Shown here piece after piece: positions 23,401 through 36,029 of a stretch of DNA of 64,000 bases. Position 1 is the stretch's first letter; every line of letters begins with the position of its first letter. A program made the position numbers and the translations under genes. The DNA is from Cyanophora paradoxa CCMP329 (lineage: Eukaryota > Plantae > Glaucophyta), in the NCBI GenBank assembly GCA_004431415.1, contig QPMI01000099.1, forward strand, positions 62,001-126,000, written 5' to 3'. Under the pieces are notes generated by a model. It saw only the letters and a program-made list of their open reading frames with translations, was not told where the DNA came from and made no database searches.

Positions 23401-24037
23401 CGCTGTCATGCCCGCCTCCTTCAGGTCGAAGTCCGCGAACGCTGGATAGTGGTCCGAGTCGTGCGGCGCATCGACCCACGCGGGGCACGTGTGCGCGCTG
23501 AGGAGCACGTGATCCAGTGATTCCGAGACCAGCACTGCATCGATGCGCGCCGCGTGCCAGAGCGCATCTTTTGGTAGGTCAGCCGGCGTTTCCTCCTCTG
23601 CTTCGCGTTCCGCGTCCTCTGACTCGTCTACGCCGTCTGACGGCACAGGTGCCGCCGCCGCCCGACCGACGCCCCTTGGCCCTTGCTTCCGTGCGGGGTG
23701 CGGTGCGTGATCTCGCGTGCTCCGCAGAGAGTTCCGTCATCATGTTTCGCCGCGTGGGACATCCCGGCGTCGCGCAGGTCCCACGAGTCGATCATCGTGT
23801 GCCACCACTTCCGTTCGGCTTTGTGGCTCTGGGCCAGGGCGCCGTTTCGGATGCGCGAGCTCGACGGGACCGGGACCGAGTTCCAGTCTCCCAGGAGCAG
23901 CAGGTGCGCGTTTTCACGCTCGTAGAAGTCGTCGTACATCTTCGTCAGTTCTTCGACGACCTTCTCCTGATCCTGGCGATGCGCAGCTTTGCTCTCGGAC
24001 GCGGGCATGTACACGCTCGCCACGAAGAGCTGGAGGT
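20410..24037 (-). pseudogene. LINE ORF, downstream part (rest of APE + RT), with about 4 frameshifts
   Basis: ORF pieces 23628-24037, 21679-23646, 21053-21703, 20616-21056 and 20410-~20790 join in sequence. The shifts at ~21760 (KKP|LYILLQD) and ~21060 (KLLG|VYMS) are single-base losses in C/G runs. Confidence 0.85.
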
Positions 24038-24212
24038 AAAAAAATGTAAATTGGGCATACTGCCCCACGAAATTATATATGGTAATAAAATCGAATAAAC
24101 TTTAAACTTTTCGATATTCCACAAACGTTTCGACAAAACCAAATCAAAAACAAACCATTCACAGTAACCACACAAAACAAAACGTAAAATCTCAGTAAGC
24201 CTCAGTAACAAC
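24038..24212 (+). repeat. Left terminal inverted repeat (175 bp)
   Basis: aaaaaaatgtaaattgggcatactgcccc...cctcagtaacaac is the reverse complement of 35248-35422. Confidence 0.95.
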
Positions 24213-24580
24213 TTAAAACCTCTCATTTTTTACTGTATTTTTTGAACGCTTTTTTACTGTATTTTCTACACTAGAAATGACGATAGAAACGACAATAAAA
24301 ACAATAGAATTTAAATTGTTTTTTAATCGTATATATGTCAATATATCAATGTAGTATATATGATATATATCATGCAAAATCGATTTATAGTCATACCTAT
24401 AACATATCGATTTGTGTATATGTGATATATATATATATGACGTCATAATGACGATACATATGTATATGATATATATGACATACCACGTGACTCGGGAGAT
24501 CATGACGATCACGGCGATGTGTTCATTATCATATGCATGACTTGGACCAATCAGCTATCGATGACTCTTCTGTGGCTCAC

Positions 24581-24828
24581 AGGTGGCTCATCGATAGATC
24601 AATGGGTCTTATCACATCATCGGTGGCTCATCGATAGATCAATAGGTCTTATCATATCATAGGTGGCTCATCGATGGATCAATGGGTCATACAACATTAT
24701 CGATCTCGGATCGATAGATGAATGGTTCAATATTTATCAATGGTTGAGTTTCGTAGTATATACTCGTAGTATAAACTTGTAGTATAATTCCATAGTATAA
24801 ATCCATAGTATATACTCGTAGTTGATAC
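24581..24828. repeat. Subterminal minisatellites in the virus: 40 bp x ~3.5 (24581-24725) and 13 bp x 6 (24751-24828)
   Basis: Units resemble aggtggctcatcgatagatcaatgggtcttatcacatcat and tcgtagtatatac. Confidence 0.85.
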
Positions 24829-25064
24829 TCGTCGTAGAAACCCCGGGAATAACTTGAACCGGGGTATATATTTGTTCGACATTTCGTCGAAATTTCGGTA
24901 AATCGATTATCGGCATCTTCAAACGCTTGTATCTCACCACCAGATGGTCAACTCGCAACGTTTTGCATAGCGTTTTGAAGCGCTTGTTAAGCTCTACACA
25001 ACTACGTAATCATCGTATTATTTCAAGCTACCTTGTCATACAATATTTCTCACAAATCGTCCTT

Positions 25065-33752: not shown

Positions 33753-34811
33753 ATGGACCAGGTTCTGAGTTATACCAAGTATCGACAGAAATTGATTAAA
33801 GAAGGTATCACATTTGATGAGGAAGAACTAAGAAAGCGTTTTAAAAATCAAGAGCTTGAGCAGATCTTTAAGAAGCCCAAAAAGCAAAAGTCTTTCTTGC
33901 GGATCATTGCTCCACCCAATTCCTTTCAGGTTGATGTGATTTATTTCAAAAGCTACAAGACAGCAACACATGGAGTGGATAGGATGCTGGGATTTGTCGA
34001 TATATTGAGTCGGAAAGCATTTGTATACCCTTTCAAGCCAAAGGATTCGAAAATCGATATTTTCAACAGGTTCAAAGTTGAGGCAGGCAAGGTTAGTGCT
34101 ATCTCAGGAGACAATGAGTTCTCTGCTGAGATTTATAGGAAATGGTGTGAGGAAAACAATGTTACACTCTACACTGATGTAGCTAAGAATGACCACATCA
34201 CAGTAGGTGATAAACTTGGTATTATCGATAGGTTCACCAGAACTTTTAAACAATATTTGAGAAAAGCAATAGTTTCGAGTGGGAACCCAAAATGGACTGA
34301 TTATTACAAACAGGTTCTGGCAACTTACAACAACAGTCCACACACTTCCCTAAAGAATGATTCACCCAATGCAGTGTATGGGAATAACGAGAAAGAATCG
34401 TTCATATATTTGCGTGATGCATTGCATAACAAACGTATTAAAGAAGGTAGCCCAACAGTAAAGGAGGGAGATTATGTTCGAGCTGTAACTGAAAAGAAGA
34501 CTTTCGATAAAGAAGGAGCAAGATACAGCAAACAAGTGTATAAAGTAGCAGGCAAGGTAGGTAATCGATTTAGTTTATTGGAAGAGAATGAGGGAGAGAG
34601 TCCAAAGGAAGTAAAACGAAACTTTAAACTGAACGAGTTGCAAAAAGTAGATAAGGCAGCAATTGTTAAGATTCCCACACAGAAGCGTGTGGAGCGAGTG
34701 AAAAAAACAACGAAGGTAAATAGATTAGTAGCAAAAGAGGGTATCAAGCCCAATAGGAGCAAAGTAGTTAGGAAGAGGTATAATTTACGAAGCGGGTTGA
34801 CTAGACGTTAG
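33753..34811 (+). CDS. Retroviral-like (rve) integrase
   Basis: FQVDVIY, VDILSRKAF, ISGDNEF, GIIDRFTRTFK, YNNSPHTSL and GDYVR..FDKEG motifs of Polinton-type integrases. Consistent with the 6-bp TSD. Confidence 0.9.
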   Translation: MDQVLSYTKYRQKLIKEGITFDEEELRKRFKNQELEQIFKKPKKQKSFLRIIAPPNSFQVDVIYFKSYKTATHGVDRMLGFVDILSRKAFVYPFKPKDSKIDIFNRFKVEAGKVSAISGDNEFSAEIYRKWCEENNVTLYTDVAKNDHITVGDKLGIIDRFTRTFKQYLRKAIVSSGNPKWTDYYKQVLATYNNSPHTSLKNDSPNAVYGNNEKESFIYLRDALHNKRIKEGSPTVKEGDYVRAVTEKKTFDKEGARYSKQVYKVAGKVGNRFSLLEENEGESPKEVKRNFKLNELQKVDKAAIVKIPTQKRVERVKKTTKVNRLVAKEGIKPNRSKVVRKRYNLRSGLTRR

Positions 34812-35170
34812 GCTGTGAGGTATGAACCATCTTTCGATTCAACAATTTTCGTGATAGGTCTGAACACTTTGAAAATTTCTTTATAATGGATTCCTTTAAC
34901 ATACCAACCCTTATGAATTGGGTCCCATCTGAGACCATAAGATTTCGCTAATTGGATGTCTTTGAAAGCAACTTGACAAAACATTTTAACATTAATGTAT
35001 TTGATTTCGTCTTCTGTTAGTTTTCGGAATTCTTTGAAGATCTCACTGTTTTCATCTTCAACAAACCATAGCTTCTTTTCAAAATCCCATTTTGCTCCTT
35101 TTGATTTCACGGATTCGCGATCATCATATCGAGAGAAAATGTAAAAGCGTTGTTGTGGCTTGGTTTCCAT
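34808..35170 (-). CDS. Protein with two tandem DUF5710-like domains
   Basis: Repeats YDDRESVKSKGAKWDFEKKLWFV and FKDIQLAKSYGLRWDPIHKGWYV (K..GA.WD...K.W.V signature). Its stop overlaps the integrase stop. Confidence 0.75.
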   Translation of the reverse strand: METKPQQRFYIFSRYDDRESVKSKGAKWDFEKKLWFVEDENSEIFKEFRKLTEDEIKYINVKMFCQVAFKDIQLAKSYGLRWDPIHKGWYVKGIHYKEIFKVFRPITKIVESKDGSYLTA

Positions 35171-35247
35171 TTTTATTCAGATTATCAGATTATTTTTATA
35201 TGAAACAATCAATGAGGAATAACCGAGATTATGATATAACATCGATT

Positions 35248-35422
35248 GTTGTTACTGAGGCTTACTGAGATTTTACGTTTTGTTTTGTGTGGTTACTGTG
35301 AATGGTTTGTTTTTGATTTGGTTTTGTCGAAACGTTTGTGGAATATCGAAAAGTTTAAAGTTTATTCGATTTTATTACCATATATAATTTCGTGGGGCAG
35401 TATGCCCAATTTACATTTTTTT
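35248..35422 (-). repeat. Right terminal inverted repeat (175 bp)
   Basis: gttgttactgagg...ggggcagtatgcccaatttacattttttt, followed by the TSD ggaggt. Confidence 0.95.
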
Positions 35423-36029
35423 GGAGGTTCCCTTTGAAGCGGAGCTCGAATCCGATCAGCCGGCCCTGGACCTCGTACTTCGTCGTGAGGTGCTTGACCC
35501 ATTGCGGCGCGACCCAGAGAGCGGCGCCGCTCCCTCGCGTTCCGTCTCCTGATTTTAGCGTGTACAGGAGCTTTCCGTGCGTTATCGCGCCTTCCGGCTG
35601 GAGCGGGTCCTCCCCTCTCGACCTCAGGGCGGCGGCCATCTGGGGCCTTGTCATCGACAGCTCCTGCACGCCCGCTACATCGACGTCCCAGCGGCAGCAG
35701 AATTCTTCTAGCTGCTGCAGCTTGTAGGCGCTGGACCCTCTCGTGTTGAAGGTCATGGTCCTCAGCACCCCGTCCGGTTTCTGCTTCCTGATAGCCGGCT
35801 CGTCCCCTATGAAGTCGCCACCTTCGGGGAACAGTCTGGGGGGAAAGACATTCTCCAGACGGAGCGTCGCAGCCGCCGCGGGTCCCGCGCCCCCGGCCTT
35901 CTTGTTCAGCTGCAGCTTGGTTGCATTTTGTTTCTTTTGGCCCGTCGGCTTGCTGCCGGACGCCTTTGTAGGTGGGGCTGCTTTTGCCGCGGCGGGGGCC
36001 GCGGCCGCAGATTTAGTTTTCTTTTTCAT
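35423..36029 (-). pseudogene. LINE ORF, upstream part (basic N-terminus + first half of APE)
   Basis: MKKKTKSAAA...LRTMTFNTRG...WDVDVAGVQEL...GSGAALWV...GFELRFKGNL joins in frame to QLFVASVYMP once the virus and one TSD copy are removed. Confidence 0.9.

What the first reader, a model, noticed from the sequence alone, without database searches (positions are those of the whole stretch)
24032..35428. Intact 11.4-kb Polinton-like virus inserted precisely inside a LINE endonuclease gene
Seen: matching 175-bp TIRs, a GGAGGT TSD, eight uninterrupted ORFs, and AT-rich DNA inside GC-rich DNA. Removing the element and one TSD copy restores the LINE frame (RFKGNL-QLFVASVYMP). Known: pPolB + rve integrase + A32 ATPase + DJR capsids define Polinton/PLV-class integrating viruses. 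Inference: this is a recent and possibly reactivatable endogenous virus that used another transposon as a landing site. That is the reverse of the retrotransposon-in-virophage nesting known from Cafeteria.
Basis: partly seen in the sequence, partly recalled or inferred. Interest (0 to 1): 0.88.

Follow-up and report, generated by a model that had tools for sequence, protein, structure and literature searches.

The report
Algal integrated virus inside a retrotransposon
A complete-looking 11.4-kb DNA virus genome sits inside one copy of a jumping gene in what is very likely a freshwater alga; its capsid family was already catalogued there, and the landing site is likely chance rather than targeting.

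Summary
In detail: perfect 175-bp TIRs, a GGAGGT duplication, eight open ORFs, 40% GC in 61-64% GC flanks, and the empty LINE site in 4 of 4 DNA runs laid. The 408-aa ORF folds as a double jelly-roll capsid (Z 28.5 to PBCV-1); pPolB, A32 ATPase and an rve-type integrase are supported; the penton call stays inconclusive; there is no maturation protease. The novelty claims mostly fail. The capsid is about 97% identical to one that Bellas et al. 2023 already listed from Cyanophora paradoxa (366 capsid hits). A virophage inside a retrotransposon is already reported in Cafeteria itself. About 12-15 LINE copies are empty at this site, and a second virus copy ends in a different flank, so targeting is not supported. 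Reactivation is untested. Worth keeping: the integrase belongs to a widespread clade with Asp in place of the catalytic Glu (24 of 24 homologues), which my searches did not find described; and the capsid cassette appears shared, within one genome, among element types that diverge at the pPolB start codon. Verdict: real, recent, new member of a known kind.

The parts
24032..24037 (+). left copy of the 6-bp target site duplication
   Evidence: skipped length in empty-site contigs equals element plus 6
24038..24212 (+). left terminal inverted repeat, 175 bp
24213..25064 (.). 852-bp non-coding region with a 40-bp (3.6 copies) and a 13-bp (6.6 copies) tandem array; differs between element types; role unknown
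   Evidence: alternative joints and loose ends at 24437-24999
25065..25823 (-). A32-like genome-packaging ATPase, 252 aa
   Evidence: Pfam Pox_A32 E 1e-15, above curated cut-off
25905..27131 (-). double jelly-roll major capsid protein, 408 aa
   Evidence: AlphaFold2 model pLDDT 64.7, pTM 0.73; Foldseek E 1.6e-17 and VIA Z 28.5, rmsd 3.0, 330 aligned to PBCV-1 capsid; about 97% identical by eye to a published EVE MCP
27184..28071 (+). putative minor capsid (penton) protein, 295 aa; inferred, not confirmed
   Evidence: position next to the MCP and an N-terminal motif recalled from PLV pentons; tests inconclusive
28108..28869 (+). 253-aa lysine/arginine-rich ORF of no known family, possibly a core protein (guess); has no cysteine, so not a cysteine protease
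   Evidence: no family hit; composition
29220..29477 (+). 85-aa basic ORF; weak look-alikes lie in related pPolB-integrase loci
   Evidence: phmmer E 0.014-0.05 to L062 and L054; the L054 ORF lies directly upstream of its polymerase-like gene
29719..33747 (+). protein-primed DNA polymerase B of Maverick/Polinton type, 1342 aa, with exonuclease and polymerase motifs intact, an endonuclease-VII-like zinc insert and a predicted vOTU Cys/His pair
   Evidence: 40-48% identity over residues 470-1342 to the 120 best hits, several carrying PF03175; motifs; endonuclease VII weak hits
33753..34811 (+). rve-type integrase, 352 aa, with a D61-D120-D159 triad (Asp for the usual Glu)
   Evidence: 24 homologues, 4 with PF00665; D159 in 24 of 24; aligns to the Glu of HTLV-2 integrase 'VER'
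34808..35170 (-). 120-aa ORF with two DUF5710 domains
   Evidence: Pfam E 4.1e-14; a homologue lies in the same position in L081
35248..35422 (-). right terminal inverted repeat, 175 bp
   Evidence: a second copy leaves the window's sequence at the same end
35423..35428 (+). right copy of the target site duplication
35429..37093 (-). 5' part of the host LINE, including the N-terminal half of the AP endonuclease
   Evidence: Pfam Exo_endo_phos E 0.0048, below cut-off; APE motifs; 96% copy of the 5' end at 63467-64000
20510..24031 (-). 3' part of the host LINE: C-terminal half of the endonuclease and reverse transcriptase (left boundary approximate)
   Evidence: Pfam RVT_1 E 1e-12; motifs; multi-copy depth

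Best explanation
This is an 11,385-bp Polinton-like virus genome with perfect terminal repeats and a 6-bp target duplication, lying in the endonuclease gene of one copy of a young multi-copy LINE, where it likely landed by chance. Shown: boundaries, eight open genes, capsid fold, ATPase, polymerase and integrase families, empty sites, other copies. Inferred mechanism: the polymerase, predicted to carry its own terminal protein and vOTU protease, would copy the linear genome from the TIR ends; the DDD-type rve integrase would join those ends to host DNA at a 6-bp staggered cut with little sequence preference; capsid, putative penton and ATPase would package the genome. The insertion is younger than the LINE copy it interrupts, which is itself identical to its family over 1,470 bases. 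The copy is likely kept silent by host CpG methylation and most likely needs a co-infecting giant virus, or a comparable trigger, to make particles (about 55%; untested). It is one of roughly 5-10 near-identical copies of its replication type, whose capsid cassette is likely shared with further element types in the same genome. The host is very likely the glaucophyte Cyanophora paradoxa.
For: Structure. Genes. Empty site in 4 of 4 DNA runs at 11.8-14.6 times the depth of a flanking unique contig. In X1 the empty-site contig has 0 substitutions over 932+538 bases, which dates the insertion as recent. A sister copy in 2 of 2 RNA-guessed runs matches over 2,577 bases (18 differences), ends at the same TIR end and continues into a flank absent from the window. 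Copies differ mostly at silent sites: 28 of 32 coding differences synonymous, 22 of 23 in ATPase plus MCP, against about 0.2 expected (36 of the 40 rows shown of 538), none a stop. Literature: 6-bp duplications are typical of rve-encoding PLVs (PMC12220804); mavirus-like elements show no sequence-specific integration and 18 of 29 sites lie near repeats (PMC8547959); repeats and viral genes are methylated and giant-virus insertions exist in C. paradoxa (PMC12344493); host from the near-identical MCP in PMC10120064 Table S2.
Against: No listed contig bridges this locus's junctions. Only one other flank was seen, so target choice rests on n=2 plus the empty-site depth; a weak preference for LINEs or repeats elsewhere is not excluded. 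Contig depth is no true copy number and varies between runs (pPolB 4.5-10.4 times). The penton is unconfirmed. No protease gene. Integrase activity with Asp for Glu is inferred from conservation and from the clean duplication, not measured; another integrase acting in trans is possible. No evidence for particles, free genomes or helper dependence. Host identity rests on one by-eye comparison.
Confidence: 0.8

Rival explanations
1. The integrase is steered towards LINEs or other retrotransposons as safe landing sites.
For: This copy sits inside a LINE gene; the family occupies only a small part of a genome (about 5.2 kb times 12-15 copies), so a hit is individually unlikely; the integrase is of an unusual clade.
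Against: The site is empty in nearly all family members (empty-site depth 1081 against 1109 in the adjoining bin, X1); the one other flank seen has no match in the window at up to 3 mismatches in 20 bases; the host holds hundreds of capsid-bearing insertions, so some will hit some repeat, and insertions in repeats escape selection; relatives integrate without sequence preference.
Confidence: 0.1
2. The element now spreads only inside the genome as a self-synthesising transposon, and the capsid genes are passengers or serve other elements.
For: No protease; penton unconfirmed; no relatives found in the viral contig collection (0 loci); capsid-less pPolB-integrase elements are described from the same alga (EVE_QPMI01_83).
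Against: Differences among ATPase and MCP copies are 22 of 23 synonymous, which points to selection on capsid function; the capsid cassette is deeper than the replication cassette.
Confidence: 0.2
3. The nesting is an assembly chimera of two repeats.
For: Both partners are multi-copy; no listed contig bridges the junctions; the window's LINE has four single-base gaps that look like long-read errors.
Against: An exact 6-bp duplication at both TIR ends (chance about 4e-4), no sequence likeness between LINE and TIR to drive a mis-join (self-BLAST), collinear LINE halves on both sides, and an independent copy confirming the right end.
Confidence: 0.05

Closest known systems
Cyanophora paradoxa endogenous viral elements of Bellas et al. 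2023 (PMC10120064, Tables S2 and S4)
   Same: MCP gene_49165 differs from this MCP at 8 of the first 299 residues by eye; HHpred there gave an ascovirus MCP at 97.19%; 366 MCP hits in two clusters (272 and 94) outside the named virus groups; five loci are drawn in Dataset S1.
   Different: The listed MCP is cut short at 312 aa by a frameshift, so it is another copy or another assembly of the gene; in the text and tables I saw, the element's architecture, integrase and insertion sites are not described.
Maverick-Polintons (class Polintoviricetes, adintoviruses)
   Same: pPolB next to an rve integrase, TIRs, 6-bp duplication, ATPase, DJR capsid; polymerase 40-48% identical to hits that include named animal proteins.
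   Different: No cysteine maturation protease; MCP outside the Mavpol columns of the published table; 11.4 kb; DDD triad; the polymerase groups with three unnamed environmental proteins outside the clade that holds the six named animal rows (rough tree).
Endogenous mavirus-like elements (EMALEs) of Cafeteria burkhardae (PMC8547959)
   Same: AT-rich, TIR-bounded, rve-integrated viruses in a GC-rich protist genome, nested with retrotransposons in both directions.
   Different: Capsid is nearer to NCLDV capsids (Z 28.5) than to mavirus (15.4) or Sputnik (16.3); no protease or helicase; polymerase keeps its exonuclease; reactivation is shown for EMALEs, not here; the retrotransposon is a LINE, not an Ngaro.
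NCLDV-related PLV groups (Zora, Zephyr, Alpensee/GKS2) and Aquintoviricetes of Bellas and Sommaruga 2026 (10.64898/2026.06.19.733378)
   Same: Small genome with MCP, ATPase and putative mCP, NCLDV-like capsid fold, rve integrase in some groups.
   Different: No Mriya48, HUH, VLTF or helicase gene was recognised; smaller than the 15-30 kb given; the paper's main text does not mention glaucophytes; its HMMs could not be read.

Membership tests
Polinton-like / Polisuviricotina-type endogenous virus (broad sense) | double jelly-roll major capsid protein | tested here: met
   published HHpred for a 97% identical protein
Polinton-like / Polisuviricotina-type endogenous virus (broad sense) | A32-like packaging ATPase | tested here: met
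   Pfam Pox_A32 E 1e-15
Polinton-like / Polisuviricotina-type endogenous virus (broad sense) | single jelly-roll minor capsid protein | tested here: inconclusive
   single-sequence fold pLDDT 32; no PDB or family hit; 23% over 194 columns, E 0.3, to a putative penton in L068; hhalign 0.3%
Polinton-like / Polisuviricotina-type endogenous virus (broad sense) | linear genome with TIRs, replicase and integrase | tested here: met
Polinton-like / Polisuviricotina-type endogenous virus (broad sense) | virions or free linear genomes | not testable with these tools
   only assembled contigs could be laid
Maverick-Polintons (Polintoviricetes) | pPolB plus rve integrase with 6-bp target duplication | tested here: met
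Maverick-Polintons (Polintoviricetes) | adenain-like cysteine maturation protease | tested here: not met
   no hit among the 8 ORFs; the only unassigned ORF of fitting size besides the putative penton has no cysteine
Maverick-Polintons (Polintoviricetes) | MCP of the Mavpol 1/2 or Gossevirus clusters | tested here: inconclusive
   the published table puts all 366 MCPs of the likely host in two columns under 'Iterative HMM searches', none under the named groups; I could not run those profiles myself
Virophaviricetes (virophages) | virophage-type MCP and cysteine protease | tested here: not met
   no protease; the fold is closer to NCLDV capsids than to mavirus or Sputnik by more than 10 Z units
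Virophage lifestyle | replication only with a co-infecting giant virus | not testable with these tools
   needs culture experiments
Aquintoviricetes or NCLDV-related PLV groups | MCP and ATPase placement within the group's profiles and trees | not testable with these tools
rve (retroviral-type) integrases | catalytic core with D, D and E | tested here: not met
   core homology met (profile hit to HTLV-2 integrase E 0.0045; PF00665 on 4 of 24 homologues), but the third residue is D in the query and 24 of 24 homologues
APE-type non-LTR retrotransposon (host of the insertion) | AP endonuclease upstream of reverse transcriptase, no LTRs, multi-copy | tested here: met
   the clade was not determined

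The most novel reading that the evidence does not exclude
A glaucophyte lineage of minimal (11 kb) integrating viruses outside the named classes, still infectious, in which one NCLDV-like capsid cassette is swapped among several TIR-polymerase-integrase chassis inside a single host genome, with the exchange point at the polymerase start codon, and whose integrase defines an undescribed DDD branch of retroviral-type integrases spread through freshwater PLVs and virophage-like elements. It would be a cultured, axenic system in which module swapping and activation could be watched directly.
Probability: 0.25. Interest if true: 0.62.

Novelty: new member of a known kind. Interest (0 to 1): 0.33.

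Why it matters
Endogenous Polinton-like viruses are common in protists, and this capsid family is already catalogued, so the locus itself changes little. Its value is practical: a clean, very young, compact copy in a culturable glaucophyte, a group for which my searches returned no dedicated virus study. If the family can be induced it would give an early-branching plastid lineage its own virus system and a test of the virophage-defence idea. The DDD integrase clade and the within-genome sharing of a capsid cassette are concrete, checkable additions to the mosaicism model of Barth et al. 2026.

Tried and rejected
No whole genome is held, so copies and targets could not be mapped. Word-based search found no MCP homologue; the full HMMER search found 6, of which P0005 (a jacalin-repeat protein) was dropped as spurious before aligning. 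PDB sequence searches for pPolB, integrase and putative penton gave 0 hits. Viral-contig scans with pPolB, integrase, ATPase, putative penton, two MCP homologues and the TIR end gave no loci; these scans only reach close relatives. The penton fold failed for lack of an alignment. The Atlas could not read the window's proteins. No RNA holder is on record as RNA; X15 and X16 are guessed to be RNA. At 95% likeness they give no long piece on MCP, putative penton, the 253-aa or the 85-aa ORF: this is no evidence of silence, since diverged copies are excluded and contigs drop sequence. No unique silent stretch was laid with them. The idea that the D-for-E change marks a dead integrase was rejected because it is invariant in 24 of 24 homologues; the 80 metagenome loci cannot be counted for this, because the search pattern forced the Asp. 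A maximum-likelihood pPolB tree did not finish; the FastTree version uses 28 of 120 hits plus 4 loci, is midpoint-rooted and warns of long-branch joins. CpG depletion is mild in the polymerase and integrase (0.61, 0.64) and absent from the LINE: not informative on methylation. Three look-ups of earlier findings returned nothing. No complex was predicted.
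Full report
1. Observation. The two arms at 24038-24212 and 35248-35422 are 175 nt and fully complementary; the first mismatch is at position 176. GGAGGT flanks both ends; a 6-bp match has a chance of about 4e-4 given the flank composition. The element is 11,385 bp at 40% GC in 64% and 61% GC flanks and carries eight open ORFs. The flanks are two halves of an APE-type LINE on the minus strand: endonuclease motifs lie on both sides (Pfam Exo_endo_phos E 0.0048 for the first half), the duplication has the same codon phase on both sides, and reverse transcriptase follows (RVT_1 E 1e-12).

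2. Independent sequence data. No genome is held. Fourteen runs guessed or likely to be DNA, all labelled organism A, hold 0.81-0.87 of the element's words. In 4 of 4 laid, a contig joins 24030 to 35422, skipping 11,391 bases, which is the element plus one duplication. Its depth is 11.8-14.6 times that of a flanking unique contig (contig depth is only a rough guide), and in X1 it equals the depth of the adjoining LINE bin (1081 against 1109), so nearly all family members are empty here. The X1 contig has no substitution over 932+538 bases against the window, so the LINE copy is young and the virus insertion younger. Four single-base gaps in the window's LINE are absent from the family contigs; they are assembly errors or private decay. 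Against the reading: no listed piece bridges this locus's own junctions; tables were cut and these contigs drop rare variants, so this neither confirms nor refutes the locus.

3. Genes. ATPase: Pox_A32, E 1e-15. MCP: six weak hits among 1.84 billion proteins, five kept; the model from that six-row alignment (pLDDT 64.7, pTM 0.73) matches PBCV-1 and iridovirus capsids by Foldseek (best E 1.6e-17, TM 0.68), viral predicted capsids, and by VIA-align PBCV-1 at Z 28.5, rmsd 3.0, 330 residues, with Sputnik at 16.3, mavirus at 15.4 and the first non-capsid at 7.8. pPolB: 40-48% identity over residues 470-1342 to the 120 best of 7,908 hits, whose named members are animal proteins; exonuclease and polymerase motifs are intact, and a Cys/His pair lies where Krupovic et al. 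place the vOTU domain (10.1101/2024.03.18.585575, passages; the domain call is inference). In a rough tree it groups with three unnamed proteins (SH-like 99) apart from the 25 rows that include the six named animal ones. That it is the 'Beta' or group-2 class is recalled, not tested. The 295-aa ORF is a penton by position and by a recalled N-terminal motif only; five tests were inconclusive. The 120-aa ORF is a DUF5710 pair. No protease: the 253-aa ORF has no cysteine.

4. The integrase. It has 24 homologues at 28-41% identity, 4 with PF00665. A profile of these aligns to HTLV-2 integrase (E 0.0045) with the family's 'IIDR' on the retroviral 'VER'. D61 is kept in 22 of 24 (2 gaps), D120 in 23 of 24 (1 gap), D159 in 24 of 24; word-based candidate choice may favour that motif. 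So this is a clade feature, not damage. Eighty of 97 confirmed metagenome loci were kept; 25 of 80 have a pPolB-like gene upstream on the same strand, 20 of the 31 with at least 1.5 kb upstream; two of the others that I scanned (L068, L002) carry an SF1-helicase/HNH replicase instead. DDD triads are known in other transposases (PMC10045372, passages). Three searches and passages of PMC3671162 showed no mention for Polinton, PLV or virophage integrases; subscription journals and alignments in supplements are outside that search.

5. Copies and selection. The polymerase-integrase arm is covered by long contigs at over 99% identity, 4.5-10.4 times unique depth; a contig on the putative penton is at 13.7-28.8 times (3 runs), and the cassette from about 24450 to 29726 collects many 90-99% alike pieces. 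Loose ends at 29726, eight bases into pPolB, continue into other sequence (X8 and X14, X1), and the left non-coding region has alternative joints. The simplest reading is one capsid cassette shared among element types with different ends and replicases; this is inferred from short contigs, not from whole copies. It fits the model of Barth et al. (10.64898/2026.10.13.758929, parts 1-4 of 5 read), who also show capsid-less elements on a contig of the same alga. Of the 40 difference rows shown (of 538), 36 lie in the element; 28 of the 32 coding ones are silent, 22 of 23 in ATPase and MCP, against about 0.2 for random changes. The rows shown are the best supported, not a random sample.

6. RNA-guessed runs. 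In 2 of 2 laid (X15, X16, different studies) a 2,620-nt contig matches 32847-35423 with 18 differences, runs through integrase, DUF5710 gene and right TIR, and leaves into a flank that is not this LINE site and has no match in the window. This confirms the right end independently and gives a second, different target. Cover of the non-coding left region, deep in DNA, is near zero in these runs, which suggests they are RNA (inference; no unique silent stretch was laid). Strand and start cannot be read from contigs; read-through from that copy's flank is as likely as viral transcription. The empty LINE site is also present in both. Of 22 differences private to these runs among the rows shown, 15 are silent and none is a stop.

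7. What is known. Bellas et al. 2023 (PMC10120064; main text parts 1-3 of 7; supplement rows) list in Table S2 a Cyanophora paradoxa MCP that differs from this one at 8 of the first 299 residues by my eye count, confirmed there by HHpred (97.19%), and in Table S4 366 MCP hits in that alga, in two clusters outside their named groups. The host is thus very likely this glaucophyte and the capsid family is in print. Starrett et al. (PMC8502044, section 3.4 and passages) had noted related contigs in the same alga. Hackl et al. 2021 (PMC8547959, passages) report an EMALE03 inside an Ngaro4 retrotransposon, no sequence-specific integration, and 18 of 29 sites near repeats, so the 'reverse nesting' is known from Cafeteria. 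Bulzu et al. 2025 (PMC12220804, section 10 and passages) give 6-bp duplications as typical of rve-encoding PLVs. Sarre et al. 2025 (PMC12344493, passages) report CpG methylation of repeats and viral genes, and giant-virus insertions, in C. paradoxa. Bellas and Sommaruga 2026 (parts 1-3 of 5 and a term search) describe NCLDV-related PLV groups; their profiles could not be read, so class placement stays open. PMC13215967 (part 1 of 6) did not bear on the case. A search for a Polinton inserted in a non-LTR element (listing only) showed no paper on that theme.

8. Mechanism and verdict. Shown: boundaries, open genes, capsid fold, enzyme families, empty sites, multiple copies, mostly silent differences. 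Inferred: protein-primed replication from the TIR ends, integration by the DDD integrase with a 6-bp stagger and little preference, packaging by capsid and ATPase, silencing by methylation, and dependence on a helper virus. It works like a Polinton or EMALE but is a member of neither by the protease test; it is a Polinton-like virus in the broad sense. At 11.4 kb it is below the 14-40 kb range given by Bellas et al. The finding is real and tidy, but its headline is known; the open leads are the integrase clade and the shared capsid cassette. Interest 0.33.

Noticed in passing
window 32891 (sister copy in runs X15, X16): A variant copy leaves the pPolB gene here into at least 255 bases of other sequence that begins like an LTR (recalled TG start): possibly a retrotransposon nested in another virus copy, the Cafeteria-type direction.
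   Followed up: no
window 29717-29844 (run X16; DNA runs): A 154-nt contig at depth 3213 in one RNA-guessed run matches a variant of the pPolB 5' end and then leaves into GC-richer sequence; the same joint (29738 to 29806) stands in 4 of 4 DNA runs. Unexplained.
   Followed up: no
window 24213-25064: Long non-coding region with two tandem arrays and CpG observed/expected 1.63 against 0.6-0.8 in the genes; many other copies skip 24518-24888.
   Followed up: partly
window, 80 bases upstream of pPolB, integrase and the 120-aa ORF: A TATA-like heptamer is shared by these 3 of 8 ORFs and by none of the capsid-side genes; no chance control was run and the DNA is AT-rich.
   Followed up: no
window 18968-20365: A 1.4-kb element with perfect 70-bp inverted ends and no long gene, probably a non-autonomous DNA transposon; a 53-bp piece recurs inverted at 37107-37159.
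   Followed up: no
window 63467-64000: A second copy of the LINE's 5' end, 96% alike, inserted in or beside the satellite array.
   Followed up: partly
window 1-8750 and 45900-63400: Two large tandem arrays: 13 units of about 640-680 bp, and a satellite of about 144 bp with higher-order repeats.
   Followed up: no
window 37064-38391: A very high-depth dispersed repeat next to the LINE's 5' end (over 100 times unique depth).
   Followed up: no
window 16559-17427: Weak PCFS4 zinc-finger hit (E 1.5e-4), probably a host Pcf11-like gene.
   Followed up: no
L068 762-11786; L045/L046; L001, L002: Freshwater elements with the same DDD integrase but other modules: L068 has an SF1-helicase/HNH replicase, an A32 ATPase and an unclassified 452-aa capsid candidate; L001/L002 are filed in IMG/VR under a giant-virus bin and show no capsid gene in the part held.
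   Followed up: partly
P0006 and P0004: Two MCP homologues come from unnamed contigs of 11,726 and 15,531 bp, sizes that would fit whole free or integrated relatives; their DNA could not be fetched.
   Followed up: partly
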